From the UHGV virus genome UHGV-0098755: 64,000 nucleotides of DNA. One strand, 5' to 3'. Positions within the stretch are counted from its first letter, which is position 1. Every line of letters starts with the position of its first letter. This stretch comes from a virus. The notes under the pieces are model-generated. The model had not been told where the DNA came from and did no database searches. It saw only the letters and a program-made list of their open reading frames with translations. The position numbers were made by a program, and so were the translations under genes. Below are positions 1 through 26,764 of the stretch, one piece after another.

Positions 1-1248
1 CCATCAAAAACTTATTCCATTTATTCTTATCACCATATCGTGATTTGATTTGCTTAATGAGTTGTTGTTCAGCAGCTGCTAACTCCTCAGTTTCAATGAC
101 CGCAAGCATAAAATCAGCTGTGGCTGGAAGACCAGCAGATTCTGCAATATCGCTCATGTTAACATCAGAAGAATCCCAAGCTTGCTTACCAACCTGTGCT
201 GCAGTCCAAAGAACAGTTTCGGTTTCAACAGCCAGAGCACGCAATTCTTCTGCGATGGCTTTAACAGTTGTGTAACTATTTTCTGAGTAAACTCTGATGC
301 GGCAAGATTTACAAATACCTAGATAGTCGACAATAATGATCGTTGGAACAAAATTCTTCTTGAGCTTCAATTCGTTTAAAAGCGATCGAAATGTATTAGC
401 GTCTGCTCCACCAGTAGGATATTGCTTAACGATTAAACGACCGAGAGTAGATTTCTCACGCCATTTTTCCATTTTTCCTTTATATTCAGCGTAAGAAATA
501 TGCCCATCATCAATGTCATCAAGAGAAACATCGAGCATATTAGCGTCAATACGTTTAGCACAGACTTCTTCTGCCATTTCCATTGAAATGTAAAGAACAT
601 TATGACCGAGCTGTAAATAATCTGCTGCCAATGAACACAATCCTAATGACTTACCAACGTTAACACCAGCCATTAAAACGTTCAGTGTTCCAGTCTCAGC
701 TCCGCCTTTAGTAATTTTATTTAGAATTTTGAGTTTAAATGGAACCTTACGAGCTTTATTCATATAAGATAGCCAACGTGCTTCATAGTCATCCATCCAA
801 TCATGACCAACGTAGCTATCAAATGAAATTGATAATGCTTGGCGCATGATGTCAGGAATAGCACCTACATCTGGCATTTTCTTATTTCGTTTTTCCGGAG
901 GAAGCTCAGCATTAGTTTGAATTTCGATTATTTTAGACGTAGCATTAAACATCGCCCTTTGCTGAACATATTTTTCTGTTTCTTTTACTAACCAGCTGTG
1001 GTCTTCCGGAGAATCAGCCAGTTTTGAAATAAGTGTTTTTACACCAGAATATTCTGTTTCAGTAAATGAACTATTTTCTAATGCAACATTTAACGCATTA
1101 ATAGATGGAACGCTATGATACTCATTGACATGAGATTTAATTAATTTGAATGTATTTTTAGCTGGACCACTTTCAAAATATTCTGAATCCATATATGGCC
1201 AAACTTTTGAAAAATAAGCTTGATCAAATATGAGATGAGAAAGAATAA
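1..1248 (-). CDS. 41: Replicative DNA helicase gp41 (DnaB-like), N-terminal ~415 codons; 3' end lies beyond window start
   Basis: Minus frame starts at GTG 1246-1248 after AAGGAG and reads MVEIILSHLIFDQAYFSKV; Walker A (AETGTLNVLMAGVNVGKS) encoded near 650-700; lies downstream of 40/uvsX as in T4. Not in ORF track because it runs off the edge. Confidence 0.85.
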
Positions 1249-1267
1249 TTTCTACCACACTTACTCC

Positions 1268-1630
1268 TTAAAAGAATTTAAATTTTTTCTTTGACCTTTT
1301 ATTAAATGCATCTTGTAGTTGCATTGTAATACATTTTTCTACATGAGGAGCTAACTCAGCTTTTCTTTCTTGGTCAAGAACAGCAAAGTCCATTACAACC
1401 TTTCCATCAACCCAATCCAGTTTAGTTACATACACTATATGTGTAGAACCATCTTCTAGTTTAATGACAATCTCCTGGATAACATTTTCCATGGCAGATT
1501 TAATTATCTTAAGAGATTCATTAAAAAGACGTTCTTTTCTTTCTTCTTCCCCCTCCGAAGAGGGGGATTCATCGATAATTTCTAGATCTAAATCTAAATC
1601 ATCTTTACTCATTAAATTCTTCCATATCAC
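1268..1630 (-). CDS. 40: gp40-like small protein (head vertex assembly chaperone in T4)
   Basis: 120-aa ORF between uvsX and gene 41, same slot as T4 gene 40; start overlaps uvsX 3' end. Confidence 0.6.
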   Translation of the reverse strand: MIWKNLMSKDDLDLDLEIIDESPSSEGEEERKERLFNESLKIIKSAMENVIQEIVIKLEDGSTHIVYVTKLDWVDGKVVMDFAVLDQERKAELAPHVEKCITMQLQDAFNKRSKKKFKFF

Positions 1631-2786
1631 TTAACTGCTCGAGGTCAGTTTCTAAATCAGCTGCTGATTTACTTTTACTTTCTGGAGATTTAAATTTTTC
1701 AACCTTTGAGTTAATCAATTCATCAACTTCAGCTTCAACAATTTCATTACTATCAATAGCACCTAACTGATAAGCACGTTTAATAGCATCTCGGAATGGT
1801 TGATGCTTAAATAAAGGACCCCAGAATGTAGTGCAGTTGGTATCTTTTGCACGCCAAGATTTTTCTTCGCGAATCATCTCGCCGGTTTCTTCATCAAGAA
1901 ATTCACGAGCATACCAGCCATTTTTAGGTTTTACCACGAATCCTAATTCTAGAGCCATATCTAACAATCCAGAATAAGGATCGATACCACCGTCAAATTT
2001 AACATCAATAAAGAATTTACTTTTTTCTTTAACAGTACGAGATTTTTCTACATTTAGAACAAATTGATACCCCTGAAGATCAGAACCATCTTTAATCTGA
2101 CGCTTACCGATAATGAATACAGTATCAGCCGAATACATTACGCCTGTACCACCTGTCATCACGGTTTTACTAAACATTTCAATTGTTTCAATTGTATGGT
2201 TAACCGCAACACATGGAATATTTTTAATGCTAAAGTAAGGAGTAACAATACGGAATAATGACTTCAGTGATTTAGCACGAGTCATATCTGCCACAGATTT
2301 TTCATTCAAGGCATCTTCCGTTTCTTTCTTAGAAGCCATATTACCGATTGAGTCGATGAATACAATAACTTTTTCACCGCGCTCAATAGCTTCAAGCTGA
2401 TTCACCATATCAATTTTCAGCTGTTCAACTGACTGGATTGGCGTATGAATTACTCGTTCCGGGTCAACCCCCATGGATCGCAAATAAGCTGGAGTAATAC
2501 CAAATTCACTATCATAGAATAGACAAACCGCGTCAGGATATTTGTTCAAATATGCCGCAACCATAGTCAAAGACATATTTGATTTAAAGTGTTTAGAAGG
2601 CCCTGCGAAAATAGTTAAACCAGACTGCATACCGCCATCAATCGCACCAGAAATAGCAATATTAAGCATTGGAATTTTTGTACGAATTACATCCTTTTCA
2701 TTAAAGAATTTAGATGTAGTCAGTTCAGCAGTCATTTTAGAAGTGGAAGCTTTAATCAAACGGGATTTTAAATCTGCAATAGACAT
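1605..2786 (-). CDS. uvsX: UvsX RecA-like recombinase
   Basis: 393-aa ORF; near-identical over its length to T4 UvsX as recalled (KSRLIKASTSK..., GPSKHFKS Walker A region, acidic C-terminus DLETDLEQLSDMEEFNE). Confidence 0.95.
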   Translation of the reverse strand: MSIADLKSRLIKASTSKMTAELTTSKFFNEKDVIRTKIPMLNIAISGAIDGGMQSGLTIFAGPSKHFKSNMSLTMVAAYLNKYPDAVCLFYDSEFGITPAYLRSMGVDPERVIHTPIQSVEQLKIDMVNQLEAIERGEKVIVFIDSIGNMASKKETEDALNEKSVADMTRAKSLKSLFRIVTPYFSIKNIPCVAVNHTIETIEMFSKTVMTGGTGVMYSADTVFIIGKRQIKDGSDLQGYQFVLNVEKSRTVKEKSKFFIDVKFDGGIDPYSGLLDMALELGFVVKPKNGWYAREFLDEETGEMIREEKSWRAKDTNCTTFWGPLFKHQPFRDAIKRAYQLGAIDSNEIVEAEVDELINSKVEKFKSPESKSKSAADLETDLEQLSDMEEFNE

Positions 2787-2863
2787 TCATTTTTTCCATA
2801 GGCATCATTATATTTTCCTCACTGGTTAAAGATAGGGTAATTATAACACAATAAATTTAGGCA

Positions 2864-3712
2864 TTAATCAACTGCTATTGGATGAATAGCATTAAACTTA
2901 TGAAATGCTTCTGATTTTTCTTTACGCGAAACACACATGCGAAGAACCTTTAATGGCTCGTCTTCTTCACCCAACGATTTTCGTTTTTCAATATTAGAAG
3001 TTTTCCAACGAGCTTGCTCTGGAAACTCTCTATTGATTTGCTCAAGCGCTCTATTATGTTTAGAATTACTACGAATTGAACTACACCCGCCAGGAGCTTG
3101 TGCTTTTCCAGATACAACCAGATATTTGAACAAGGCCAAATGCGGATAACCTTGATTAATTAAATTGAGAAATGCATACATATCTTCGCATAAATCAATT
3201 TTTCCATACCCAATTTGTTCTGTCGTAAGTTTTCCAAGGTCATACCATGTATTCGTGAATCCATATGAATTTTCACGATAATTACCCCAAGATGAAGTAA
3301 TTTTAAAAATAGGTAGACGAGCATGGCCATGATAATACCCGCAATCCATGGCATCTTCAACGTATTGAATCAATTCATAGAACTGTTCACGAGTTAATTG
3401 ATTAATTTTATCTACGCAGCGACGATCATCTTTCTTTCGCATTGAACTCATACGAATAGTAGTATCATCATCAATCATCCAAATTCGTTGACCTGCATAC
3501 ATATCAGTAATTGCTTTACGAGTACCAGCAATTCCGTTAACATCATCAGGAATAGTTATAATTTTAGCTCTAGACCCATAAGCGTCATAATAAGCTTTTT
3601 CTTCGTGTTCACGTACTACAATATGAGGTTCATAATCAGTCGGAAACATATCAAGGGCAGAAACTGCCCCTACGCGTTGATAGCTTGGAATTACGAATTG
3701 AATCATTTCCAC
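2864..3712 (-). CDS. Glycosyltransferase with DXD motif at the beta-gt locus; candidate HMC-DNA sugar transferase (beta-alpha-gt-like), not T4 beta-gt
   Basis: 282-aa ORF between uvsX and gene 42 where T4 has 351-aa beta-gt; contains IWMIDDDTTIR (DXD-type motif); no resemblance to T4 beta-gt N-terminus as recalled. Confidence 0.55.
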   Translation of the reverse strand: MEMIQFVIPSYQRVGAVSALDMFPTDYEPHIVVREHEEKAYYDAYGSRAKIITIPDDVNGIAGTRKAITDMYAGQRIWMIDDDTTIRMSSMRKKDDRRCVDKINQLTREQFYELIQYVEDAMDCGYYHGHARLPIFKITSSWGNYRENSYGFTNTWYDLGKLTTEQIGYGKIDLCEDMYAFLNLINQGYPHLALFKYLVVSGKAQAPGGCSSIRSNSKHNRALEQINREFPEQARWKTSNIEKRKSLGEEDEPLKVLRMCVSRKEKSEAFHKFNAIHPIAVD

Positions 3713-4443
3713 TCACCGTTATAATCTTTTTTCGCAATATGAGTTTCGCCAGTTTTCCACCAATGGTCAACCAAATAAAAATGGCGGGAATACACATGAA
3801 GGCTCCCGACATTCCATATAATGGAACCTGCTTTATACTGACGAGTTGAATCACCTGCATTCAAATCAGATACTAATTTATCTAGTACGTATTTTTGCCA
3901 TGCATAATCATTACGGAATCCGAAGACTACGTCATTTGAACGCATGCTTACTACTGCATTGACTTTCTTATCACGAATCAGGTACTGTACTGTATTCGTA
4001 CACATGAAATCTGACATACCATCTTTATTGTAGTCAAACTGCATGGATGGACGAGTATAAATCATGATACCACGCCGAGAATCAGGATTTTGACCAAGTT
4101 CAGCTAAACACATATCATATTGGGCATAGTTATCTTCTGACCAGATGGCCCAACCATAATTCGAGTTAATTTCGCCTTTAGAAGATGCTACCTGCTGCCA
4201 AATCTTTGGTATTTCACCTGGAATATCTTTAACAAACAGACTTTGAGACTTATACCATTCAAGTTCACGTTGAATGTATTCATCATTAAGAGCGCCAAAA
4301 ATAAAAGGTTCATCTGCTACAAATGATGCACCAATAATTTCAATAGTTTTAACACCGGTTTTATCAATTACGAAATCTTTTTCCTTTAATGCAATTCCTA
4401 AATGAAGACGGATTTCTTCAACTGTCATAGAGTCATTAATCAT
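3703..4443 (-). CDS. 42: dCMP hydroxymethylase
   Basis: 246-aa ORF, near-identical to T4 gp42 as recalled (MTVEEIRLHLG..., thymidylate-synthase-like fold motifs). Confidence 0.95.
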   Translation of the reverse strand: MINDSMTVEEIRLHLGIALKEKDFVIDKTGVKTIEIIGASFVADEPFIFGALNDEYIQRELEWYKSQSLFVKDIPGEIPKIWQQVASSKGEINSNYGWAIWSEDNYAQYDMCLAELGQNPDSRRGIMIYTRPSMQFDYNKDGMSDFMCTNTVQYLIRDKKVNAVVSMRSNDVVFGFRNDYAWQKYVLDKLVSDLNAGDSTRQYKAGSIIWNVGSLHVYSRHFYLVDHWWKTGETHIAKKDYNGEWK

Positions 4444-4596
4444 TTAAACCTCAATTGATACATTCATATTTAACTTGTAACAGTAATAAACTCCACCCTA
4501 TAATAAGCGTTGGAATCATACAAGGAACTGCTACGCTATAGTATATACTTATTATAACCATCAAGATTAAAAGCAATGCTGTTATAATTTTGCTTT

Positions 4597-4848
4597 TCAT
4601 TCCTTCTCTCTGATGATAATTACTTGATTTTGCTGTACAGATTTTTTAGTTTCACCTGCAATTGACCAAATAAATGTAATAAACCAACCAATAATTGACC
4701 AGTTAAACAGTAAAGATGTGAAAAAGATTCCTACTGTCGATTTTGACCCACGCATCAAGGCGATGAACCATGGAAGCATGTATATAATAATAGCCAACAC
4801 ACCTGAAACTAAAACCATAAAAATTGAACCTGCTACTAAAGTTTCCAT
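4597..4848 (-). CDS. imm: Superinfection immunity membrane protein
   Basis: 83-aa ORF with two hydrophobic helices, located between 42 and 43 as T4 imm (83 aa). Confidence 0.85.
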   Translation of the reverse strand: METLVAGSIFMVLVSGVLAIIIYMLPWFIALMRGSKSTVGIFFTSLLFNWSIIGWFITFIWSIAGETKKSVQQNQVIIIREKE

Positions 4849-4855
4849 GTTTTCC

Positions 4856-5236
4856 TCACTTAGTCAAATTTTTTACACATGAATTATAAGAATTTACTAC
4901 ATACTCCATCGGAGCATTTTTACCAGTACGCCATTGGTAATTATTAGCCCAATTTGCCCAAAGCTCAGCGCAGTAGTTTTCAATTTTTTCTTCGCGTGTA
5001 ATTACATCCGAATTACGATATGCTTGAGCAGATTCATCTGGGCGAATAGCTTCGTCAAAATTCGCCTGCATCTGTTCTACTGTCTGTTTTGGAGCTTCTT
5101 TATAACACTTGACGTTAGGATTATAAAATTTGCTTGAACAGTTTACAATTTTTCCTACATCAGACTGATTTACTACCGGTCCTTGAGCTACACAACCAGT
5201 AAGACCTAATGCAATAACCAAAATAGCGATTTTCAT
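4856..5236 (-). CDS. Small lipoprotein (signal peptide with lipobox LTGC)
   Basis: ORF track gives 4856..5347, but the upstream part is a translated promoter; likely start is ATG 5234-5236 (MKIAILVIALGLTGC) preceded by GGAG. Confidence 0.6.
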   Translation of the reverse strand: MKIAILVIALGLTGCVAQGPVVNQSDVGKIVNCSSKFYNPNVKCYKEAPKQTVEQMQANFDEAIRPDESAQAYRNSDVITREEKIENYCAELWANWANNYQWRTGKNAPMEYVVNSYNSCVKNLTK

Positions 5237-5261
5237 TTCATTCTCCAAATCCGTATCAGTT

Positions 5262-5315
5262 GATAGTTGTATAGTACCACAAAGGAACAGGGATGTAAAC
5301 AGTTTTGTGAAAAAA
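5262..5315 (-). promoter_or_regulatory. T4-type early promoter
   Basis: Minus strand reads GTTTACA, ~17 nt, TGGTACTATACA, with conserved upstream AAAATTTTTTTCACAAAACT region; drives the lipoprotein gene. Confidence 0.7.
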
Positions 5316-5384
5316 ATTTTTAGGGAATCCAAAGGGTCCAGAATCATCTCTTTTTCATAAGTATAGATTTATATTACTTGTATG

Positions 5385-5405
5385 AAAAAGGGACCTGGAG
5401 GTCCC
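5385..5405 (-). terminator. Intrinsic terminator after gene 43
   Basis: GGGACC-UCCA-GGUCCC hairpin followed by U-run on the minus-strand transcript. Confidence 0.7.
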
Positions 5406-5418
5406 TAGATTTATTCTA

Positions 5419-8115
5419 TCAGCCAAACAGGAAGTCTAACGAAGCTTTTTCTTCATAGTCCATGCCAGCCGATTCACACATACCCGCAAGCGGTTTAACA
5501 AACGATTTTTGGAACAAAGTTGAGTGGTCAATCCAAGATAGTACATCAGAACGAATTTCTTTTGGAAGTTCTGTACCCGACGGCCAAGCAATGCACTTGT
5601 CACCAAATGGATTTCCTTCACGTAATGGAAGAACCATTACCTTATTTCCATCCAAAATTGGAGCTACACCTAGACCACTAACAGCTCGACGATAAGTTAG
5701 CACCCCACGAATGTGGAACGGGCATTTAAATCCTGGCCAACCTTTATCGTCATATTTCGCTATATCGTTCGCGGTTTTTACTTCAGCAATAACTTTATAG
5801 TCAAGTTGACGATATTCTTTCTCGAAGTTCTTGTAGTATTCTTGGACAGACTCTTCACCTTCCTGAAGAATACGACGAATACTTTCTTCGAGAGCTTCTT
5901 GTACTGCTTTTGGTGTTGAACTCTGCTGAGTTTCCATACCCATGATTTTTAGATGTGGTTCAGCAAATCGCTTATCTTCCATATCATAAACGTTCAGAGC
6001 ATAACGTTTTTTCGCTTTCCAAAATCCACCGACACCCTTTGAACCAAGCGGAGGACAAGAAATAGCTTCACGGTCCATATGCATCAGATGCTCGCGGTTA
6101 TTCATATAATCACATAACTCACGATATGCAACATCAATCATAGGTTCCATCTTTTTCTTACCAAACTGATTCATGAATTCAACTAAATCATTTTGTTCTT
6201 TAAAGCGGTCAAGACCTACTTTTTCAATAACTTTATCTACACAGACATATACCGAATCAGTATCACCTGCTGCGATGAAATCTTCACCACCAGTTCCACA
6301 TACTTTATTCAGGTATTCATTAATTTTACGAGCAATCCACTGAATACCGACTTGACCAAAAATTGTGATAGCAGTAGCATTTCGCAAATCATAGTAACGG
6401 AAATGAATATTACCAAGAGCACCATAAAGACTGTTGATAAGAATTTTACGGTTTAGCTGATTTGTGTTAGCAAGTGTAGCTGCTTTTTCACATTCTTCAA
6501 TCAGACTATTGAGAACGGATTCGGTGTAATTCGATAGTTCATTTAAGAAATCATCACTGAACTTAACATATCGTTCAACTTCTGGTTTAGTTGAGCAAGA
6601 CCCTGCACCTTTCATAATAATCTTTTTAATAGCTTCGGCATTCATTTCTTCAGCGAACATTTTCTTTTTCCAATCTTTACGTTGGAAAAATACTTTAGCG
6701 ATTTCCTTTGGAATGATACCTTCTTGATGCTTATCATACATCCATCCATTCGGAGAACAAGAATATTCATCACTCGGTTTAGGAGCTGTTCCTGCAATAT
6801 ATTCATGAATTGGATGAACTTTAAACTGCCCACGAATAGTCTCAGGACTAATGTTAACCTGACGAATAATGCTAGGATACAGAGACGTCAAGTCAAAACT
6901 CATAATATATCGACGAGCAATTGGTTTAGGTTCAAACACAAATGCACCCGGAAAACTCTGTTTAACGTGCGAACCTTGTTGAGGAATAACCTTATGTTCA
7001 CCTTTCAATGAGTTAAAAATAATAGCATCCCAAGTTTTAATAGGACTCATTACACCGGAAAAAGGCATTTTAGCATAATAAGACATACTTAAAACTAGAT
7101 CGATAAACCCGCGAATTTTATCAATTGCTTGAACTGATTCTACGTCAATGATGTTATAACTAATGTATCGTTGATGATTAGTTTCACGAAGTTTATTAAT
7201 AGGACCGTCGTATGGTAATTTACCTTTTTTGGTTTCATGTTGAGCAACTGATTCCAAAGAGAATGACGGCAAATTAGTAAATGCGAATTTCTTATACAAA
7301 TCTAAATAATCAAGAATAGATACGCCATCAATAGAATAAATTTCTTTGCTACCGTACACATTTTGAATTAGTTTAGATTTTACTCGACCGATTGGAGAGA
7401 AGCGTTTCATACTACGTTCACCGAGAACCATTTTAACGCGATTCATGATATACGGAACGTCAAATCCCTCAATATTCCAACCAGTAAAAATAGCAGGTCG
7501 TTTCTGTTCCCAGAGATTGATATATTCCATGAGCATATCACGCTCATTATCGAATGGCATATAAATTACTCGGTCAAGAATTTCTTGAGGAACTTCATCA
7601 CCACCTTCACAGTCAAGCTTAGCAGCTAACTTTGCATCCCATTTTGATACTGAACCATACATTGAATTCAAAAGGTCGAAAACATAAAAACGATCGTCAA
7701 TTGAATCGTAATGAGTGATAGCATCAATTTCATATTCTGCTTTCATTGGGTCAGGAAATTTATCACCAGTAACCTCAATGTCACAGTTAGCTACACGAAC
7801 AAATTTTCGGTCATAAACAATTTCTGAACCGTATGTATCACTGATATAAGCGAGTTTAAAATCGTTCATACCGAGAGCTTCGAGACCGATGTCTTCCATT
7901 CGTTTCATCCAATCTCGAGCATCTTTCATTGATGGAAATTTTTGAGGAGCACAGTTTTTACCATAGATGTCTTTGTATTTTGACTCTTCCTTACAATGCC
8001 TAAACATAGTCGGAAGATATTCTACTTCACGAGTACGTTCCTTTCCGTTTTCATCAATATAACGTTCAACAATGTTATTTCCGACTGTTTCAATAGAGAT
8101 ATAAAATTCTTTCAT
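5419..8115 (-). CDS. 43: DNA polymerase (family B) gp43
   Basis: 898-aa ORF, same length as T4 gp43; exonuclease and polymerase motifs present (e.g. DIEV, YGDTDS-like AAGDTDSVYV). Confidence 0.97.
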   Translation of the reverse strand: MKEFYISIETVGNNIVERYIDENGKERTREVEYLPTMFRHCKEESKYKDIYGKNCAPQKFPSMKDARDWMKRMEDIGLEALGMNDFKLAYISDTYGSEIVYDRKFVRVANCDIEVTGDKFPDPMKAEYEIDAITHYDSIDDRFYVFDLLNSMYGSVSKWDAKLAAKLDCEGGDEVPQEILDRVIYMPFDNERDMLMEYINLWEQKRPAIFTGWNIEGFDVPYIMNRVKMVLGERSMKRFSPIGRVKSKLIQNVYGSKEIYSIDGVSILDYLDLYKKFAFTNLPSFSLESVAQHETKKGKLPYDGPINKLRETNHQRYISYNIIDVESVQAIDKIRGFIDLVLSMSYYAKMPFSGVMSPIKTWDAIIFNSLKGEHKVIPQQGSHVKQSFPGAFVFEPKPIARRYIMSFDLTSLYPSIIRQVNISPETIRGQFKVHPIHEYIAGTAPKPSDEYSCSPNGWMYDKHQEGIIPKEIAKVFFQRKDWKKKMFAEEMNAEAIKKIIMKGAGSCSTKPEVERYVKFSDDFLNELSNYTESVLNSLIEECEKAATLANTNQLNRKILINSLYGALGNIHFRYYDLRNATAITIFGQVGIQWIARKINEYLNKVCGTGGEDFIAAGDTDSVYVCVDKVIEKVGLDRFKEQNDLVEFMNQFGKKKMEPMIDVAYRELCDYMNNREHLMHMDREAISCPPLGSKGVGGFWKAKKRYALNVYDMEDKRFAEPHLKIMGMETQQSSTPKAVQEALEESIRRILQEGEESVQEYYKNFEKEYRQLDYKVIAEVKTANDIAKYDDKGWPGFKCPFHIRGVLTYRRAVSGLGVAPILDGNKVMVLPLREGNPFGDKCIAWPSGTELPKEIRSDVLSWIDHSTLFQKSFVKPLAGMCESAGMDYEEKASLDFLFG

Positions 8116-8169
8116 AGATATTCCTTAGTTTATAGCCCGAGTTATTAGGCTCTTGATATATTATACTCC

Positions 8170-8189
8170 AAATAAGGGGCCGAAGCCCC
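8170..8189 (-). terminator. C(UUCG)G hairpin after regA
   Basis: GGGGC-UUCG-GCCCC on the minus transcript. Confidence 0.6.
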
Positions 8190-8193
8190 TTGC

Positions 8194-8562
8194 TTAATTA
8201 CCAATCGTATATTTAGGAACGAGTTTCCATTCATGTTTTTGTTTAAAAGAAATAACTCGGAAGTTATTAGTTAAATCTTTCATAAAAGTTCTTTGACCGG
8301 GAGCGATTTCGATCAGTCCCCAATCTTCTAACAACCACGCAATCGAATCACGACGAACTTCATCTTCTTCTGTCATTTCAACCTGACGGCCATCCATACG
8401 AAGCATTTCTTTAAAATGAACGATATAGTATAGCCCTTTTTTCTGGAGAATGTGGCAGGATTGATACAGAACTTTATCTTTATTATTAGCAATTCCCATA
8501 CGAGTCAAAGTTTCTTTAACTTTCAGAAAATCTTCAGGTTTTTTAAGAGTAATTTCAATCAT
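8194..8562 (-). CDS. regA: Translational repressor RegA
   Basis: 122-aa ORF matching T4 RegA as recalled; immediately upstream of gene 43. Confidence 0.95.
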   Translation of the reverse strand: MIEITLKKPEDFLKVKETLTRMGIANNKDKVLYQSCHILQKKGLYYIVHFKEMLRMDGRQVEMTEEDEVRRDSIAWLLEDWGLIEIAPGQRTFMKDLTNNFRVISFKQKHEWKLVPKYTIGN

Positions 8563-8563
8563 T

Positions 8564-9127
8564 TTACCATTCCAATGCTAGTTTTTTGAGTTGTTTCTGT
8601 TCTTTTACATTCTTAGTCACTTCTTTCAAAAAATCATCCGTGACTAAACCTTTTAGTTCTTTTAATACTAAAGGAAGTTTTCCATTTTTAGTAAGAATTG
8701 ATTTATAGTTAATTGCATCATTTGTATTAACTTGATACCGCTTAGCAAGTAACTTAATAATCAATACTTCGGTAGAATCTTCAACCAGTTTTGCCCATTT
8801 ACCATATCTTTTACCCCGAGGAACAGCAGCCATCAGATAATTAAAATGGGCTTCATCGCTTAAACCCGATCCAATTAAATTCATAGCATATACAGCTGGC
8901 ATGCACTCCGGAAATTGCGATAATGCATTCTCAACCATGTATTTTGAATAATCTTTTTGAGCAATAGAGCATTTAGTTTTATTATTAATAGCTCCAATTA
9001 TTTCAAAAAACTCATTTTCAGCTTTTTCTTTAAAAGAATCAGCAGCAGATTGGACAGCTGTCCAATCTTTTGAATACCAAGCAACTTGATGCTCGTTTAA
9101 TTGAATATCATCTTCAAATAAGCTCAT
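8564..9127 (-). CDS. 62: Clamp loader small subunit gp62
   Basis: ORF 8564..9148; start at internal ATG ([10 protein letters not shown]) gives 187 aa as T4 gp62; lies just after the gene 44 stop. Confidence 0.85.
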
Positions 9128-14825: not shown

Positions 14826-14848
14826 AAGCTAAAGGGCCGAAGCCCTTT
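14826..14848 (-). terminator. C(UUCG)G hairpin after alpha-gt
   Basis: AAAGGGC-UUCG-GCCCUUU. Confidence 0.6.
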
Positions 14849-16049
14849 ATTTTGTAATAATGTCAAACTGCTCTTTAAAGCAGAAGCTTGAATCTTGGTG
14901 CTGATACAAAAATTCATAAGCTTTTTCACGTTCACGGTCATAAAGAGCTCGGTCAGATGACAGTTCTTTAATACGTTCAAATGTTGATTCCATGTCATTT
15001 TCATCAAACCAAACGATACCGCTATCGTGTGAAATTAATGGAGTATTATCAACACGGAATTTTAAATTTTCGCCAGTAGATTTCCAAAATACTGGAATTG
15101 TTCCACATGCACCAAGCTCGAGATGAGTGTATTCTAAAGAACGCTGTAGATATTTTTTATCTAATTTACTCAGCTGATAACCAAATCCGGATTTACTCAT
15201 GCGTTCAAGCATTTCGCTATTTACATAACGGTCAAGAATTTGCGTTGGCAAATTAGGAGCAATTTTAATTTGGTCTACTTGATGAAGACGATAATACTCG
15301 TATGGAATTCCTTTTTCTTTAATAGGAATGAACGCTGGAGAACGTTCCAGACCTTCCATAATAGTACTTAGTCCTGCAGGTTTAAGATGTTTTTCATGAA
15401 AATCAAACATCTGATAAAAGCCTTTCCATGTAGTAGTACGACCAATCCAACGGTTGATATTCATGTTAATTTCAGAAACATCTTTCCAGTAGGTTGATCG
15501 AACCTTCGCAATATCCATAGGAGGCTGAAAGTTATATACGGTCGGTGCTTCTTCAATATCATCAAACAAAGAAACAGTTTCCGGATACCATTCTTTCATT
15601 AAAACTTTATTAAAATCACCATTATCAGAATGGCTAAAAATAACATCAGCTCGACGAACAGTTTCTTCTAATCCCAAATTTCGACGCAAAGAAAGAGAAG
15701 AATGGTCATGCTGATAAACTACAACACGAACCGAAGGTTTAATGTTATCAATAATTTTTTTATAGTTATTAATCGTGTCTTCTTCAACTGAAGTAGCAGG
15801 AACTGAATTGATAACTAGAATATCACAATCATTTACCAGCTTAAGTGTTTTATCGTATTCTTTTGCCAATAAAACTGGAATTGAAAATGACTTATAATCA
15901 TGCGCACAATTACGAGTAAATGATTTATCTTTAGCATAAACCAAAGTTACTTCATGACCATTTTTAATAAACCAATCACGCTGCTCAAGAGAAAATTTAG
16001 TTACACCGCAACCTTCAAGACCTCGAGCCATAAAAATACATACTTTCAT
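14847..16049 (-). CDS. agt: DNA alpha-glucosyltransferase
   Basis: 400-aa ORF, same length and N-terminus type as T4 alpha-gt (ICIFMARGLEGCGVTKF...); position after gene 47. Confidence 0.88.
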   Translation of the reverse strand: MKVCIFMARGLEGCGVTKFSLEQRDWFIKNGHEVTLVYAKDKSFTRNCAHDYKSFSIPVLLAKEYDKTLKLVNDCDILVINSVPATSVEEDTINNYKKIIDNIKPSVRVVVYQHDHSSLSLRRNLGLEETVRRADVIFSHSDNGDFNKVLMKEWYPETVSLFDDIEEAPTVYNFQPPMDIAKVRSTYWKDVSEINMNINRWIGRTTTWKGFYQMFDFHEKHLKPAGLSTIMEGLERSPAFIPIKEKGIPYEYYRLHQVDQIKIAPNLPTQILDRYVNSEMLERMSKSGFGYQLSKLDKKYLQRSLEYTHLELGACGTIPVFWKSTGENLKFRVDNTPLISHDSGIVWFDENDMESTFERIKELSSDRALYDREREKAYEFLYQHQDSSFCFKEQFDIITK

Positions 16050-18856: not shown

Positions 18857-19054
18857 GGAGTTTAATTTCCTTAGCAATTGAACTAAATGCAGCACGATCG
18901 CAAATCATGCGTTTATGTAACTTGAGTATAATATAGCAAACTTCAAAACTATTTACATGAGTAACACGAACAGCATTACCATTCACGAGATAATACTGTC
19001 CCTTTTTAATTTCTTTATCAACCACAACCATATCAATTCCTCAAAGGTAATTCA

Positions 19055-19112
19055 TATGTTAATAATACCACAGTTTGAACTTGTTGTAAACAACTTTGTG
19101 AAAATTATTTTA
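19055..19112 (-). promoter_or_regulatory. T4-type early promoter
   Basis: -35 GTTTAC (19086-19091) and -10 TGGTATTATTAA on the minus strand, conserved upstream block. Confidence 0.65.
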
Positions 19113-19189
19113 GGGAATGATAAGAAAGGAACGATAGCTTAGAATGGTAATATACAGAATGTGAGAAAGAAAGGCCCAGAGGGCCCGTC

Positions 19190-19498
19190 TTAATCTTCTA
19201 TGATATCTCTATCATATCCAAGTGAAATGAGAGTTTCTTTGAAGTGTTTAATGTTCTTTTGTCTAGAATCATTAATGAAAATGACTGGATAACGAATGTT
19301 AAGAGATGTGAATCCAGCGCGTTTAGCAAGAGATACAATCAGTGGACGATCATACTCAATCTTACCATTATTTGTAAGAACTTTATAGAAAGTAAAAGGA
19401 GCATTGAGCTCCTTTAGAAGTTTTGTAACTGATTGACATCCAGGACAACGACCTACTTCATCTGGAATTCCATAGACTTCAATCTTATTTTGTTTCAC
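19190..19498 (-). CDS. nrdH: Glutaredoxin-like protein NrdH
   Basis: 102-aa ORF with CPGC redox motif, upstream of nrdG/nrdD. Confidence 0.8.
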   Translation of the reverse strand: MKQNKIEVYGIPDEVGRCPGCQSVTKLLKELNAPFTFYKVLTNNGKIEYDRPLIVSLAKRAGFTSLNIRYPVIFINDSRQKNIKHFKETLISLGYDRDIIED

Positions 19499-19500
19499 AA

Positions 19501-19713
19501 CTATTCCTTACTAAGAGCAGCATTCAGCTTGTTAGTAATTTTATCCAGACGCTCACTGAACTCACTGGAAGATAAGCCTTTTTCTGGAGAAATTAAACTA
19601 ATCACGAAAAATATAGCAATAAAAGGAATAAGGAAAATAGCTCCAACTGCCATAAACAGAAAGAATGTTACAGTTGTAAGAAAATCAGCTAAACCTTTAC
19701 GAAATTTATACAT
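19501..19713 (-). CDS. Small membrane protein
   Basis: 70-aa ORF, one long hydrophobic segment. Confidence 0.45.
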   Translation of the reverse strand: MYKFRKGLADFLTTVTFFLFMAVGAIFLIPFIAIFFVISLISPEKGLSSSEFSERLDKITNKLNAALSKE

Positions 19714-19828
19714 ATTTTACCCTTAATTGATTAACCAAGCATTGATAAGCACTAAACTATATTGGGAATAAAATTCTGGACCAAAATGAAAAATCATATC
19801 ATTTATAGTATCCATAATGTAATTCAAT

Positions 19829-20299
19829 TTAATCATGTTTCCACACCCCATCGGTATTTGACCAAAGCCGCTGATTATCTGATCCTCGCCACAGCTTTTT
19901 GGTCGGAAGATTTTTCTCATACTTCCCATCAATAATAACATCAACATATTTAAGCATTTCTAGTTGTTTAATATCTTCAAACTTGTATCCTGTCCACAAC
20001 CAAATGCTTTTATTCGGATAAAGATTTTTTACCGTTTGAACAATGCAATGAACAACATCTCGGTTATCAGGATAAAGAGGGTCTCCTCCAGTTATAGTTA
20101 ATCCTTCTATATAATCATTATTCAAACATTCAATTAATTGTTCTAGTGTTTCACCAGTGAATGGAATACCATTTCTAGCATTCCATGTTGATTTATTATA
20201 ACACCCTTCGCATTTATGCAAACAACCTGTAACGAAAAGAACAACCCTGCAACCAGGGCCATTCACAAAATCGCAAGGATAAAATCTATCATAATTCAT
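19829..20299 (-). CDS. nrdG: Anaerobic ribonucleotide reductase activase NrdG (radical SAM)
   Basis: 156-aa ORF with cysteine cluster GCLHKCEGC. Confidence 0.9.
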   Translation of the reverse strand: MNYDRFYPCDFVNGPGCRVVLFVTGCLHKCEGCYNKSTWNARNGIPFTGETLEQLIECLNNDYIEGLTITGGDPLYPDNRDVVHCIVQTVKNLYPNKSIWLWTGYKFEDIKQLEMLKYVDVIIDGKYEKNLPTKKLWRGSDNQRLWSNTDGVWKHD

Positions 20300-22113
20300 T
20301 GGTGTTTAACCCTATGCATGATTTCTTTATTTTTACCGAGATTAAATCCGCGTTCGTTCGGGTTTCCAAGATATCCGCATGTTCTTCTTATTGTGTTCAT
20401 CTTTTTAGGATCAGTTTCTCCACAAATAGAACAAACAAATCCGTTTTCAGTAGGAGTCATTTCATGGGTACTTCCGCATGTAAAACATTTATCTACTGGC
20501 ATATTAACACCAAAATAATCTAAATGTTGTGCAGCATAATCCCATACAGCCTCAAGACCTTTTAGGTTATTTTTCATATCAGGAAGTTCAACATAAGAAA
20601 TGTGACCACCTGTCGCAATGAAATGATATGGGGCTTCTCGAGAAATCTTTTCAAACGGAGTGATATTTTCTTCTACTGAAACGTGGAAACTATTAGTGTA
20701 CCATCCTTTATCAGTAACATCCTTTACACTTCCATATTTCTCGGTATCAAGTTTACAGAAGCGATAGCACAGGTTTTCAGCAGGAGTAGAATACAAGCTA
20801 AAAGCAAAACCGGTTCTTTCAGTCCACTGCTTAAGATGTGCATTCATTTTAGTTAAAATTTCCTGTCCAATATCACGACCGACAAGAATATTCAATTCGT
20901 GAATACCGATGTATCCTAGGGACACTGAACTTCTACCGTTTTTAAATAACTCAATTATGTCGTCATCAGGTTTAAGACGAACCCCGAATGCACCTTCTTG
21001 GTAAAGAATAGGAGCAACAGTCGCTTTAACTCCTTTTAAGGAACTAATTCTACACATCAATGCTTCAAAACATAAATCCATTCGTTCATTGAACAATTCG
21101 ATAAATTTCTGTTCATTGAATTGTGTTCCAATATAAGAATCTAACGCGATGCGAGGAAGATTCAATGTTACAACGCCAAGATTATTACGTCCATCAAGAA
21201 TTTCATTACCAGTGGAATCTTTCCATACGCCCAAGAAACTACGACAACCCATTGGAGAAACAGGAATAGATGAACCTGTGATAGCTTTATTATTCTTAAC
21301 TGAAATAATATCAGGATACATTCTTTTACTTGCACACTCTAGGGCAAGTTGCTTAATATCATAGTTCGGATCGTCTTTATAAAGATTAACACCTTCTTCA
21401 ACGAACATAACAAGCTTAGGGAAAATAGGAGTTATCCCGTCACGACCGAGACCTTTAATGCGATTTTTCAGAATTGCTTTCTGAATCATTCGTTCAGTCC
21501 AGTCAGTTCCCGTACCAAATGTAATTGTTACAAAAGGCGTTTGTCCGTTTGAACTAAAGAGAGTATTTACTTCATATTCGTAAGCTTGGAATGCATCGTA
21601 TACGTCTTTTTCTGTTTTAGATTGGGCATAATTCAATGCATCTGCGATTTGCCATTTTTCTGCATCCTCAATATGTTTTGCATAGGTGCGTTTAACATAA
21701 GGAGAAAGTACTTTATCTACATTCGCAAAAGTCGTTCCGCCATATTGATGGGAAGCAACCTGTGCAGTAATTTGTGCCATAATTGCAGTAGCAACACCGA
21801 TTGATTTAGGAGTTTCAATCTGCGCATTACCGAGCTTAAATCCGTTCTCAAGCATTCCTTTTAAATCTACTAAACAGCAATTAGTAAATGGAAGAGCAGG
21901 GGAATAATCAATATCATGGAAATGAATAATTCCGCTTTCATGCGCTTTCATAATAAAAGACGGGACCATATTTTTGGCAATGTGTTTAGACACAATACCA
22001 GCCATAAGGTCCCGTTGAGTTGGAAAAACACGAGAATCTTTATTAGCATTCTCGTTTAAAAGGTCTTTATTAGTTTTATGAATCAATCCTTCAATTTCTT
22101 TTTCAATTGTCAT
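20296..22113 (-). CDS. nrdD: Anaerobic ribonucleoside-triphosphate reductase NrdD (glycyl radical enzyme), uninterrupted
   Basis: 605-aa continuous ORF; C-terminal glycyl-radical motif RRTCGYLG and Zn-ribbon cysteines. Confidence 0.95.
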   Translation of the reverse strand: MTIEKEIEGLIHKTNKDLLNENANKDSRVFPTQRDLMAGIVSKHIAKNMVPSFIMKAHESGIIHFHDIDYSPALPFTNCCLVDLKGMLENGFKLGNAQIETPKSIGVATAIMAQITAQVASHQYGGTTFANVDKVLSPYVKRTYAKHIEDAEKWQIADALNYAQSKTEKDVYDAFQAYEYEVNTLFSSNGQTPFVTITFGTGTDWTERMIQKAILKNRIKGLGRDGITPIFPKLVMFVEEGVNLYKDDPNYDIKQLALECASKRMYPDIISVKNNKAITGSSIPVSPMGCRSFLGVWKDSTGNEILDGRNNLGVVTLNLPRIALDSYIGTQFNEQKFIELFNERMDLCFEALMCRISSLKGVKATVAPILYQEGAFGVRLKPDDDIIELFKNGRSSVSLGYIGIHELNILVGRDIGQEILTKMNAHLKQWTERTGFAFSLYSTPAENLCYRFCKLDTEKYGSVKDVTDKGWYTNSFHVSVEENITPFEKISREAPYHFIATGGHISYVELPDMKNNLKGLEAVWDYAAQHLDYFGVNMPVDKCFTCGSTHEMTPTENGFVCSICGETDPKKMNTIRRTCGYLGNPNERGFNLGKNKEIMHRVKHQ

Positions 22114-22583
22114 TTTAAACTCTTTCTAAGCTGCTTCTTGAATGAAGCTATTAATTGTGTTTTGGTGTCAGATTCATTATATTCAAATCCTCTTTGAAGC
22201 ATCTCAGCCATCATTTCCTCTTTTCCTAAACGAGAAAATTCCTTTGATTTATCTCCAACGAAGTTAGGGTGAATATTATTTTGGGTGTAATCGGATTTTA
22301 AATAAGTAAGTAAATTTTCTAACCATTCAAGATAATCAACACCTTGTCCCTTTAAGCCAGAACGATTAAATTTATGCTTCATTTGACCTTCTGCGGCATT
22401 GCAGAGATTACAAAGCAATCCACGTACCTTTCCTGCTTTTGGTCCATTTAATTCATGGTCATGGTCGAGGTGATTAGCTTGAACATCAGGATTTAGTTCT
22501 CGTTGGCAAATTAAGCATTTACCGTTTTGTGCATCATAAAATTTCTGTTTTTCTTCTTTATATAATTTGCCAGTCAATAACAT
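22110..22583 (-). CDS. 49: Endonuclease VII (Holliday junction resolvase) gp49
   Basis: 157-aa ORF with N-terminal zinc-binding cysteines (CLICQ...CNLCN) and HxH motifs. Confidence 0.93.
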   Translation of the reverse strand: MLLTGKLYKEEKQKFYDAQNGKCLICQRELNPDVQANHLDHDHELNGPKAGKVRGLLCNLCNAAEGQMKHKFNRSGLKGQGVDYLEWLENLLTYLKSDYTQNNIHPNFVGDKSKEFSRLGKEEMMAEMLQRGFEYNESDTKTQLIASFKKQLRKSLK

Positions 22584-22625
22584 AATAAAACCCTTACCTT
22601 AAATAGATAAGGGTATTTATTATTT

Positions 22626-23129
22626 TCAAGTATTGTAAAACATTTGATTCAATCGCTTATATTGCCGAATCTTTTGGTCAGAAAAAGAAATTTGGGTTTC
22701 AAGCCATTCAATATATTCTGCCGCAGCTTGCATCAGGTTACCTTCATAGCCATCGTTATTTTCTTGTGCAGCTAATTTAGCTAATGCGTATGAAATACGT
22801 TCACCTTGAAAATCGGCTTTAGGTATTTGAACATCTTGACTAGTTCTCTCTACAACTTCTTCAATTTCGCCATTTTCAACGGATTCAGTATTCCATAAGC
22901 ACCAATACGTAATTGGCTTATCGTAGATGTTAATAATCTTTCCATCAGAAAGTTCAATTTCAATAATTCCAGTATCAGGTTCTATATCATCTTCGCATTC
23001 TTTTGCAAGTTCACGAACTTTAAAGACAGTACCTGCACTAAGTTCCGGCCAGTAATTACATAGCCCTCTATCAGCACGATTAATTCTAAACCACTTATCT
23101 ACTGTAATCATGTCCCATCTCCATATCAA
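22626..23129 (-). CDS. Hypothetical protein in the T4 pin (protease inhibitor) slot
   Basis: 167-aa ORF upstream of gene 49; assignment by position only. Confidence 0.45.
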   Translation of the reverse strand: MIWRWDMITVDKWFRINRADRGLCNYWPELSAGTVFKVRELAKECEDDIEPDTGIIEIELSDGKIINIYDKPITYWCLWNTESVENGEIEEVVERTSQDVQIPKADFQGERISYALAKLAAQENNDGYEGNLMQAAAEYIEWLETQISFSDQKIRQYKRLNQMFYNT

Positions 23130-23234
23130 TTAAGTCATTTATCGTTGGTTCATTATATACTGTTTCTTCATCAGTGTAAACCGGTTCTTCCGGCTCTGGC
23201 TCTACAGTTTCCCATCTAGCCGCCCACCAAGGTT

Positions 23235-23555
23235 TTATAGCGTAATCCATTCTCGTACTGTCTGAGTTACTACACGTTCTCGAAGCTCAACCAGTTCAAC
23301 AGTAGGAACTGCATAATACCAGTCAGAATGGTAAGAACCTGAGCGAGATTCATTTACGGAAACATATACGTAGTGTTTTGGGCTAAAGTAAATTACTCGA
23401 CGATATTGGCATTTGCCTTGTTGAGTCCATTCTTCGGATTCAATCTGAATAAGATAGTCGGAAAAATCGAAATCATAGTTTTCCGAAAATGCATCATGGT
23501 CTTCGATGATTTCGCTCAGAACTGCATCAACATCTAATTTATTTTCAATAGTCAT
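23235..23555 (-). CDS. Hypothetical protein
   Basis: 106-aa ORF. Confidence 0.45.
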   Translation of the reverse strand: MTIENKLDVDAVLSEIIEDHDAFSENYDFDFSDYLIQIESEEWTQQGKCQYRRVIYFSPKHYVYVSVNESRSGSYHSDWYYAVPTVELVELRERVVTQTVREWITL

Positions 23556-23566
23556 TTTTTCACCAA

Positions 23567-23776
23567 TTAATTTCGCAATTTATTAAGTTCTTCATAATCA
23601 ATCCAGGATTCTAATCCTGATGGCAAATCAGATTCAATTTCACAAAGAAGCTCTTCAATTTTCTGAAGACGATCTAATTCTTCAGCTGGAATAGTAACCA
23701 TTGACGGAGTTCTTGATACACTAATATCGTAAATCATATTTACCCCAGTTTGACCATACAATCGCCATATTTCCAT
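23567..23776 (-). CDS. Small hypothetical protein
   Basis: 69-aa ORF. Confidence 0.4.
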   Translation of the reverse strand: MEIWRLYGQTGVNMIYDISVSRTPSMVTIPAEELDRLQKIEELLCEIESDLPSGLESWIDYEELNKLRN

Positions 23777-23955
23777 TTAGAAATAGACTTTTCGCCGTTA
23801 GAATAATAAACTTCGAGTTTAGCGCGGCCATTTTTAATTTGAATAACCTTGGCTGTCATCAAAGTTCCATACCCATAGTAAACTGCAACTTCATCACCTA
23901 CATATACCGCGCTTCCGCGGTAATCATGGATATAATCAGTTCCTTCTAGCATCAT
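23740..23955 (-). CDS. Small hypothetical protein
   Basis: 71-aa ORF. Confidence 0.4.
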   Translation of the reverse strand: MMLEGTDYIHDYRGSAVYVGDEVAVYYGYGTLMTAKVIQIKNGRAKLEVYYSNGEKSISKWKYGDCMVKLG

Positions 23956-24215
23956 TTAAAGTATTCCCGCAATTGGTCAAATCCACCAATATGACTTCCA
24001 TCAGGAGCAAATACCTGAGGCATTGTCAAGCCGATTTGAGTATCACGACCTAGTTTAGTCAGAAGCTCAGCAATTTTCTCATCATCAAAAACACCTTTTT
24101 CCGGCATAATGTTGATAAATTCAAACGGCTGTTTCTTCACGGTCAAAAGACGTTTTGCATTATCGCAATACACACATTTGTGGATGTTGCTATCATAACC
24201 ATATACTTTAAACAT
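23952..24215 (-). CDS. nrdC: Thioredoxin/glutaredoxin NrdC
   Basis: 87-aa ORF with CVYC active site, matching T4 NrdC as recalled. Confidence 0.9.
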   Translation of the reverse strand: MFKVYGYDSNIHKCVYCDNAKRLLTVKKQPFEFINIMPEKGVFDDEKIAELLTKLGRDTQIGLTMPQVFAPDGSHIGGFDQLREYFK

Positions 24216-24216
24216 A

Positions 24217-24474
24217 TTATTCCTTAATTCCTAGTACTTGTTTAAAAGTCTCGTCGTAATCAAGACTTTGGCCCGTTTGTTCTTTATGTTTGTATATAAT
24301 ATCACTTACTTCTGATAGCATATTTTTATATGAACGAGTTAAAGCAGATTTAAGCACGCTGTATCTATCAGGAAATTTACCATGTTCATTATAATACGCT
24401 ATTGCTAATTCACGGACTGCCTTTTCAGCAGTCTCCATATATTCTTTACGCTTGGTCATTTTCTTCTCGGTCAA
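24217..24474 (-). CDS. Small hypothetical protein
   Basis: 85-aa ORF. Confidence 0.4.
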
Positions 24475-25686: not shown

Positions 25687-25738
25687 GTTCTTCTCACTTT
25701 GTTAATGATTTATACTCCGAGCCATCCTTGGCTTTAAA

Positions 25739-26740: not shown

Positions 26741-26764
26741 ATTAATCTCCTCAGTAGAAAGTAA

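What the first reader, a model, noticed from the sequence alone, without database searches (positions are those of the whole stretch)
2864..3712. Different glycosyltransferase at the beta-gt locus
Between uvsX and gene 42, where T4 carries the 351-aa beta-glucosyltransferase, this phage has a 282-aa protein with a DXD-type motif (IWMIDDDTTIR) and no resemblance to T4 beta-gt as recalled. With a T4-like alpha-gt also present (14847-16049), this suggests a different hydroxymethylcytosine sugar pattern (for example gentiobiosyl as in T2/T6), which determines sensitivity to host type IV restriction and CRISPR systems.
Basis: partly seen in the sequence, partly recalled or inferred. Interest (0 to 1): 0.45.

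Follow-up and report, generated by a model that had tools for sequence, protein, structure and literature searches.

The report
T2/T6-type second-glucose DNA glucosyltransferase gene
This is the ordinary, long-known T2/T6-type enzyme gene that adds a second glucose to already glucosylated phage DNA.

Summary
The ORF at 2864-3712 (minus strand) is real. It lies between uvsX and gene 42 and carries the IWMIDDDTTIR motif. Its likely start is the ATG at 3706, which overlaps the gene 42 stop as ATGA, giving 280 aa rather than 282.

It shows no similarity to T4 beta-gt, and no beta-gt is found anywhere in the window. It is the beta-glucosyl-HMC-alpha-glucosyltransferase (ba-GT, ggt, "TAGT") of phages T2 and T6:
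- PHROG 842, E=1.9e-89.
- Pfam PF20691, above the curated cut-off.
- 276/280 residues identical to the T2 protein.
- 475 GenBank phage records carry the gene at 95-99% DNA identity.

A T4-type alpha-gt is present at 14847-16049. A predicted structure has the GT-A fold, closest to inverting GT2 enzymes. That fits transfer of glucose from UDP-glucose in beta-1,6 linkage onto alpha-glucosyl-hydroxymethylcytosine, which makes gentiobiosyl-hmC.

Published work already covers this:
- the synteny with T4 beta-gt;
- the GT-A fold;
- LC-MS detection of gentiobiosyl-hmC in alpha-GT + TAGT Tequatroviruses;
- a T6 ba-gt deletion that makes the phage more susceptible to the Brig1 glycosylase.

The feature is already known and common, and T4 is the exception. 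Interest is low.

The parts
2864..3706 (-). ba-gt / ggt / TAGT coding sequence: beta-glucosyl-HMC-alpha-glucosyltransferase, 280 aa plus stop TAA at 2864-2866
   Evidence: ORF. ATG at 3706 in an ATGA overlap with the gene 42 stop. PHROG 842 E=1.9e-89. Pfam PF20691 38.8 bits against a cut-off of 27.5. 276/280 identical to T2.
3707..3712 (-). Two extra codons (GTG GAA) of the mechanical ORF; probably not translated as part of the protein
   Evidence: The T2 annotation starts at the equivalent ATG.
3713..3717 (-). Shine-Dalgarno-like GGTGA, 6 nt upstream of the ATG and inside the end of gene 42; suggests translational coupling to gene 42
   Evidence: Sequence read directly. Coupling is inferred.
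3464..3472 (-). GAT GAT GAT = D79-D80-D81, the DXD-type metal and nucleotide-sugar binding motif
   Evidence: Sequence. Invariant in the homologue alignment. It sits at the end of a central beta strand (E74-79) of the GT-A model.
3182..3187 (-). GAA GAT = E174-D175, a candidate 'ED' catalytic-base motif at the start of helix 174-184
   Evidence: D175 is invariant and E174 at least 90% conserved. Helix position from the model. The assignment as catalytic base is an inference by analogy with GT2 enzymes.
3673..3696 (-). Codons 4-11, FVIPSYQR: the beta1 strand and loop motif resembling the GT2 'IPTYNR' nucleotide-binding motif
   Evidence: I6, P7, S8, Y9 and R11 are invariant. Strand E2-6 in the model.
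2775..3720 (.). Segment with no nucleotide homology to T4; T4 has segA plus beta-gt in 1941 nt at this position
   Evidence: blastn of window 1-9000 against T4 19000-32000 aligns only 1-2774 and 3721-9000. T4 annotation.
3703..4443 (-). Gene 42, dCMP hydroxymethylase; makes the hmC precursor
14847..16049 (-). a-gt, DNA alpha-glucosyltransferase; makes alpha-glucosyl-hmC, the acceptor for ba-GT
   Evidence: E=7e-257 to PDB 1xv5.
1605..2786 (-). uvsX (RecA-like recombinase), downstream neighbour

Best explanation
The gene encodes the T2/T6-type beta-glucosyl-HMC-alpha-glucosyltransferase (ba-GT, also ggt, a member of Pfam TAGT; EC number 2.4.1.28 as I recall it).

Proposed pathway:
1. gp42 makes hm-dCMP, which is incorporated into phage DNA.
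2. The alpha-GT encoded at 14847-16049 puts an alpha-linked glucose on hmC.
3. This enzyme uses host UDP-glucose to add a second glucose in beta-1,6 linkage to that alpha-glucose. The product is gentiobiosyl-hmC.

The enzyme has a GT-A (GT2-like) fold. The invariant D79-D80-D81 motif presumably holds a divalent metal and the UDP diphosphate. An acidic residue, E174 or D175, is the candidate base that activates the acceptor 6-OH for a single-displacement, inverting transfer (UDP-alpha-Glc to a beta linkage).

The gene is probably co-transcribed with gene 42 and translationally coupled to it through the ATGA overlap.

The expected biological effect is a DNA sugar pattern of hmC, alpha-glucosyl-hmC and gentiobiosyl-hmC with no beta-glucosyl-hmC. 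That changes susceptibility to modification-specific defences, for example masking alpha-glucosyl-hmC from the Brig1 glycosylase.

Shown here: identity of the gene, its fold class, motif conservation, synteny and the presence of alpha-gt. Taken from the literature on near-identical genes: the chemistry and the defence phenotype. Inferred: the catalytic residues, the coupling, and the extent of modification in this phage.
For: - PHROG 842 'beta-glucosyl-HMC-alpha-glucosyltransferase', E=1.9e-89, full length.
- Pfam PF20691 TAGT, 38.8 bits against a cut-off of 27.5, covering profile positions 2-205 of 205.
- 475 phage records at 95-99% nucleotide identity, many annotated as this enzyme.
- 276/280 aa identical to T2, and 275/280 to the T6 MH550421 reading frame, one difference being a stop codon.
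- Same position between uvsX and gene 42 as in T2 and T6.
- Intact T4-type alpha-gt in the window.
- No beta-gt in the window.
- DDD, R11 and D175 are invariant in homologues.

Literature:
- In T2 and T6 this enzyme adds glucose to alpha-glucosylated hmC to give gentiobiosyl-hmC, has a GT-A fold by AF3, and clusters next to GT2 (PMC13216743).
- Tequatroviruses with alpha-GT plus TAGT and no beta-GT contain alpha-gentiobiosyl-mdC and no beta-glc-mdC by HPLC/MS (PMC13390438).
- T6 with ba-gt deleted is more susceptible to Brig1, and its DNA is degraded by Brig1 (PMC11078745).
Against: - No biochemical or mass-spectrometry data exist for this particular phage.
- The window is only 64 kb of a genome of roughly 166 kb, so a beta-gt elsewhere cannot be excluded from the sequence alone. 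only shows that this window holds none.
- The model has low-confidence loops (87-100, 130-149, 194-210), so active-site assignments are tentative.
- The fraction of hmC that ends up gentiobiosylated cannot be predicted. T2 has 5% and T6 has 72% with enzymes differing at a handful of residues.
Confidence: 0.93

Rival explanations
1. The protein is a functional substitute for T4 beta-gt. It would act directly on unmodified hmC and give mono-beta-glucosyl-hmC rather than extending alpha-glucosyl-hmC.
For: It occupies the position syntenic with T4 beta-gt. It makes a beta linkage. PMC13216743 notes that TAGT homologues also occur with beta-GT or alone, so acceptor specificity across the family is not settled.
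Against: The protein is 98-99% identical to the T2 and T6 enzymes, whose product is gentiobiose on alpha-linked glucose. Phages with this gene content showed no beta-glc-mdC by HPLC/MS (PMC13390438). T6 with ba-gt deleted is described as carrying only alpha-glucosyl-hmC (PMC11078745).
Confidence: 0.03
2. The gene is present but weakly active or inactive in this phage. The DNA would then be essentially T2-like or alpha-only, with little gentiobiosyl-hmC.
For: T2 carries a near-identical gene yet has only about 5% gentiobiosyl-hmC (PMC6024577, PMC13390438). Two public T6 records carry lesions in this gene, so alleles do vary. The window protein has two substitutions, K92 and I101, not seen in T2 or T6.
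Against: The ORF is intact and every invariant family position is retained, including R11 (His in T2) and the DDD motif. K92 and I101 lie in or beside the variable, low-confidence 87-100 loop, at positions that vary among homologues. Environmental Tequatroviruses with this gene set had 40-67% gentiobiosyl-mdC (PMC13390438).
Confidence: 0.12
3. The enzyme uses a different sugar donor or makes a different linkage from the T2/T6 enzyme, giving a new disaccharide.
For: Only the general observation that T-even relatives have diversified their sugars, for example arabinosylation in RB69 and Mosigvirus (PMC6024577, PMC13390438).
Against: There are 4 differences from T2 and 5 from the T6 MH550421 frame (one of them that record's stop codon), none at conserved positions. 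No sugar-nucleotide biosynthesis genes lie beside it: the neighbours are uvsX and gene 42.
Confidence: 0.01

Closest known systems
Phage T2 beta-glucosyl-HMC-alpha-glucosyltransferase (AP018813 CDS BBF63203.1, 280 aa)
   Same: 276/280 residues identical. Same length, same ATGA overlap with gene 42, same position between gene 42 and uvsX.
   Different: Four substitutions: R11H, K92R, I101V and P251S (window residue first). T2 has His at position 11, where the window and all other homologues have Arg.
Phage T6 ba-gt / ggt (MH550421 AXN58083.1; AP018814 BBF63468.1)
   Same: About 98% identical and at the same locus. The gene's function was shown genetically in T6: a ba-gt deletion is described as leaving only alpha-glucosyl-hmC and raises Brig1 sensitivity (PMC11078745).
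   Different: The window gene is intact. Record MH550421 has TAG at codon 10 and is annotated from Met20 (261 aa). Record AP018814 lacks one Asp codon of the DDD motif. Other differences are Y40N, D55G, K92R, I101V and R106H.
Pfam PF20691 TAGT (TET-associated glycosyltransferase) family
   Same: Full-length profile match above the gathering score. GT-A fold and an acidic DDD motif.
   Different: The family was named for members linked to TET/JBP dioxygenases that make hmC in DNA by oxidation. Here hmC comes from the gp42 nucleotide-level pathway and no TET gene is adjacent. The match is modest (E=1.2e-9), so the T-even enzymes are a divergent branch.
T4 beta-glucosyltransferase (PF09198; PDB 1JG7 as cited in PMC13216743)
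   Same: Same genomic slot next to gene 42. Uses UDP-glucose, inverts configuration to make a beta linkage, and modifies hmC-containing DNA.
   Different: No sequence similarity. GT-B fold against GT-A here (PMC13216743). The acceptor is bare hmC rather than alpha-glucosyl-hmC. The T4 cassette also contains the homing endonuclease segA, which is absent here.
Cellular GT2-family inverting GT-A glycosyltransferases (BcsA, SpsA, TarP/TarS, AvpGT)
   Different: Only 7-15% sequence identity. The acceptor is a sugar on duplex DNA rather than a lipid, polysaccharide or teichoic acid. No solved structure is detectable by sequence.
Second arabinosyltransferase of RB69 / Mosigvirus phages
   Same: Analogous logic: a second transferase extends a monosaccharide on modified cytosine to a disaccharide (PMC13390438).
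   Different: Different sugar, base chemistry (5-hydroxy-dC) and genomic location. Homology was not tested here.

Membership tests
T2/T6 beta-glucosyl-HMC-alpha-glucosyltransferase (ba-GT, PHROG 842) | Full-length sequence homology to the T2 and T6 enzymes | tested here: met
   PHROG 842 E=1.9e-89 over residues 2-277. 276/280 identical to T2 and 275/280 to the T6 MH550421 frame.
T2/T6 beta-glucosyl-HMC-alpha-glucosyltransferase (ba-GT, PHROG 842) | Located between gene 42 and uvsX, in place of T4 beta-gt | tested here: met
T2/T6 beta-glucosyl-HMC-alpha-glucosyltransferase (ba-GT, PHROG 842) | Co-occurs with an alpha-glucosyltransferase that supplies the alpha-glucosyl-hmC acceptor, and with the gp42 hmC pathway | tested here: met
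   alpha-gt at 14847-16049, E=7e-257 to 1xv5. Gene 42 at 3703-4443.
T2/T6 beta-glucosyl-HMC-alpha-glucosyltransferase (ba-GT, PHROG 842) | Transfers glucose from UDP-Glc in beta-1,6 linkage to alpha-glucosyl-hmC in DNA (gentiobiosyl-hmC product) | not testable with these tools
   Known for T2 and T6 and for relatives by HPLC/MS (PMC13216743, PMC13390438, PMC11078745). Needs an enzyme assay or LC-MS for this phage.
Pfam PF20691 TAGT | Score above Pfam's gathering threshold with full profile coverage | tested here: met
   38.8 bits against 27.5; profile positions 2-205 of 205. Homologues P0001-P0004, P0006, P0007 and P0009-P0011 carry precomputed PF20691; P0005 and P0008 have none on record.
Pfam PF20691 TAGT | Genomic association with a TET/JBP dioxygenase (the origin of the family name) | tested here: not met
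   The neighbours are uvsX and gene 42. The hmC here comes from dCMP hydroxymethylase. This is a contextual feature of the founding members and not a criterion of the Pfam model.
GT-A fold, GT2-like inverting glycosyltransferases | Single Rossmann-like nucleotide-sugar-binding domain with the GT-A topology | tested here: met
GT-A fold, GT2-like inverting glycosyltransferases | DXD-type acidic motif following a central beta strand | tested here: met
   D79-D80-D81 are invariant and follow strand E74-79.
GT-A fold, GT2-like inverting glycosyltransferases | Catalytic base carboxylate positioned at the acceptor site | tested here: inconclusive
   E174 and D175 are conserved, but no structural superposition of active-site residues was possible with these tools.
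T4 beta-glucosyltransferase (PF09198) | Sequence homology to T4 beta-gt | tested here: not met
   BLASTP best E=3.4. No PF09198 hit. GT-A rather than GT-B fold.

The most novel reading that the evidence does not exclude
The most novel reading still open concerns allelic differences in this enzyme, not its presence. They might set how much of the DNA becomes gentiobiosylated. T2 (about 5% gentiobiosyl-hmC) has His at position 11 in the beta1 'IPSYQR' motif. T6 (about 72%), this window and every other homologue examined have Arg there. If R11H is the cause of the 60-year-old T2/T6 difference, this phage would be predicted to be T6-like (high gentiobiosyl). Single-residue variation in ba-GT would then tune sensitivity to alpha-glucosyl-hmC-specific defences such as Brig1. 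This rests only on the alignments. No phenotype was tested, and expression level or the alpha-GT allele could equally explain the difference.
Probability: 0.15. Interest if true: 0.3.

Novelty: already known. Interest (0 to 1): 0.08.

Why it matters
The sugar pattern on hmC decides which host defences can see T-even DNA. These include type IV restriction enzymes (McrBC, GmrSD/BrxU), the Brig1 glycosylase and some CRISPR-Cas systems. Knowing that this phage has the alpha-GT plus ba-GT genotype therefore predicts its defence-sensitivity profile, which is useful for choosing therapeutic or model phages.

It does not open a new question. The gene, its chemistry, fold, synteny and prevalence have all been described, and near-identical copies exist in hundreds of sequenced phages.

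Tried and rejected
- **Homology to T4 beta-gt:** rejected (BLASTP E=3.4; tblastn over the whole window, best E=7).
- **A second copy or paralogue of the gene in the window:** none.
- **Sequence search of the PDB:** no relative with a solved structure; best E=0.76, spurious.
- **NCBIfam:** no model matches either ba-GT or alpha-GT, because that library targets bacterial and archaeal proteins.
- **Promoter and terminator consensus scans around the gene:** counts at chance level (12 found against 9.9 expected; 1 against 1.4). No dedicated sigma-70 promoter or terminator can be claimed.
- **GTG at 3712 as the start:** considered and rejected in favour of ATG at 3706, because of the ATGA overlap, the SD spacing and the T2 annotation.
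- **The T6 amber-codon variant in IMG/VR:** none found; the intact version is in 3 contigs.
- **A deeper profile search and a second structure prediction:** not run, because the shallow alignment already gave a usable GT-A model and the literature reports the same fold.

Full report
**Observation**

The minus strand carries an uninterrupted ORF at 2864..3712, 282 aa from a GTG. Downstream of it is a 393-aa RecA-family gene (1605..2786). Upstream is a 246-aa thymidylate-synthase-family gene (3703..4443). Both flanks are 93-96% identical in DNA to the T4 regions annotated as uvsX and gene 42, dCMP hydroxymethylase. The motif IWMIDDDTTIR is present.

Reading the start region directly shows ...GGTGAGTGGAAATGATT.... 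The gene 42 stop TGA (3705-3703) overlaps an ATG at 3706-3704 as ATGA, and GGTGA lies 6 nt upstream. The T2 record annotates the equivalent ATG, with a 4-nt overlap with gene 42. The product is therefore most likely 280 aa, and the GTG is an artefact of mechanical ORF calling.

**What it is**

The protein has no similarity to T4 beta-gt (best BLASTP E=3.4). T4 beta-gt finds nothing in the 64-kb window by tblastn. Instead:
- The protein matches PHROG 842, 'beta-glucosyl-HMC-alpha-glucosyltransferase', over its full length at E=1.9e-89.
- It matches Pfam PF20691 (TAGT) above the curated threshold (38.8 against 27.5 bits, full profile coverage).
- A megablast of the gene finds 475 phage records at 95-99% identity. 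Nearly all are Escherichia, Shigella, Yersinia or Salmonella T4-like phages, and many annotate it as beta-glucosyl-HMC-alpha-glucosyltransferase.
- The first 25 kb of the window is about 97% identical to Tequatrovirus genomes such as PEC04 and HY01.
- Against the classical phages, the protein is 276/280 identical to T2. It is 275/280 identical to the T6 MH550421 reading frame, where one of the five differences is a stop codon. The gene sits in the same slot in T2 and T6.

Nucleotide homology to T4 is lost exactly over window 2775-3720. T4 carries segA plus beta-gt there, 1941 nt against 946 nt in the window. This is a clean cassette difference whose edges lie in the first codons of uvsX and the last codons of gene 42.

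**How it most likely works**

Database homologues (E from 4e-189 down to 2.6e-8) conserve several features:
- an N-terminal FVIPSYQR motif;
- the DDD triplet (D79-D81);
- an E174-D175 pair;
- a GGCSxxR motif.

An inverting GT-A enzyme is what is needed to turn UDP-alpha-glucose into a beta-1,6 linkage. I infer the following:
- DDD binds the metal and the UDP diphosphate.
- E174 or D175 is the catalytic base.
- The acceptor is the 6-OH of the alpha-glucose installed on hmC by the alpha-GT.
- Expression is coupled to gene 42. Promoter and terminator scans show no signal above chance around the gene.

**Comparison with what is known**

All of this is already published.
- PMC13216743 (NAR 2026) equates the T2/T6 beta-glucosyl-HMC-alpha-GT with PF20691 TAGT. 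It reports a GT-A fold next to GT2 from an AF3 model. [quoted passage not shown]
- PMC13390438 (AEM 2026) notes that TAGT lies at the position syntenic with T4 beta-gt. By HPLC/MS, Tequatroviruses with alpha-GT plus TAGT contain 5-hmdC, alpha-glc-mdC and alpha-gentiobiosyl-mdC (roughly 1:2:2, or about one third hmdC to two thirds gentiobiosyl) and no beta-glc-mdC.
- PMC11078745 (Nature 2024) deleted ba-gt in T6. The mutant is described as carrying only alpha-glucosyl-hmC and is more susceptible to the Brig1 glycosylase.
- PMC6024577 summarises the classical values: gentiobiosyl-hmC is 72% in T6 and 5% in T2.
- From my own memory, not checked here: the T2 and T6 genes were cloned and sequenced in 1993 (Winkler and Rueger, Nucleic Acids Res.).

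Both the observation and the interpretation hold. The locus has a non-homologous transferase, and the T2/T6 gentiobiosyl pathway is the right call.

**Limits**

- Only 64 kb of the genome is available, so a beta-gt elsewhere is not formally excluded.
- The proportion of gentiobiosyl-hmC in this phage cannot be predicted from sequence.
- The catalytic-residue assignments are by analogy only.

**Side observations**

- *T6 public records.* Both carry a lesion in this gene. MH550421 has TAG at codon 10 and is annotated from Met20, which removes the conserved beta1 motif. AP018814 has only two of the three Asp codons of the invariant DDD. The amber variant is absent from IMG/VR.
- *T2.* T2 alone has His at the otherwise invariant Arg11. 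This is a candidate, untested explanation for its low gentiobiosyl content. The window allele has Arg11 and an intact DDD.

**Scores**

Novelty: already known. Interest: low (0.08). The only mildly novel thread is the allele-level hypothesis about residue 11.

Noticed in passing
L002 (T6, MH550421) 3138-3980 minus strand; L004 (T6, AP018814) 3135-3974; aligned to window 2864-3706: The two public T6 genome records each carry a different lesion in ba-gt. MH550421 has TAG at codon 10 (CAA Gln in the window and T2) and is annotated from Met20 as 261 aa, losing the conserved FVIPSYQR strand. AP018814 lacks one GAT of the invariant GAT-GAT-GAT (DDD). T6 is the textbook high-gentiobiosyl phage, and the NCBI database accession that PMC13216743 gives for its TAGT query (YP_010067197.1) may derive from the first record; I did not check this. 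These could be stock mutations or sequencing errors.
   Followed up: partly
window 3674-3676 (codon 11, CGC Arg); L003 (T2) equivalent codon CAT: T2 has His at position 11, where the window, T6 and all eight other homologues that include this region have Arg. The residue lies in the N-terminal IPSYQR motif typical of GT2 nucleotide-binding sites. It is a possible cause of T2's 5% against T6's 72% gentiobiosyl-hmC, but this is untested.
   Followed up: partly
window 2775-3720 against L001 (T4) 4557-6497: The homing endonuclease gene segA, which in T4 lies between uvsX and beta-gt, is absent here. The non-homologous cassette boundaries fall inside the first codons of uvsX and the last codons of gene 42. 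The uvsX product is 393 aa here and in T6, against 391 aa in T4.
   Followed up: partly
window 2840-2866, minus strand: The ba-gt stop codon lies within TAATGCCTAA, followed 11 nt later by TATAAT. This resembles a T4 MotA-dependent middle promoter (MotA box plus -10) placed to drive uvsX. The consensus is recalled from memory, and the sigma-70 scan does not cover this promoter class.
   Followed up: no
window 3652-3672, minus strand: A 9-bp GC-containing hairpin (TAGGGGCAG-TTT-CTGCCCTTG) lies inside codons 12-18 of ba-gt and is conserved in T2 and T6. The terminator-like count in the region is not above chance (1 against 1.4 expected).
   Followed up: no
window 4856-5347, minus strand: This mechanical 163-aa ORF contains an internal Met followed by a lipoprotein-type signal (MKIAILVIALGLTGC). 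It probably corresponds to the roughly 126-aa imm.1 product annotated in T4 and T6, so the real start is likely the internal ATG.
   Followed up: no
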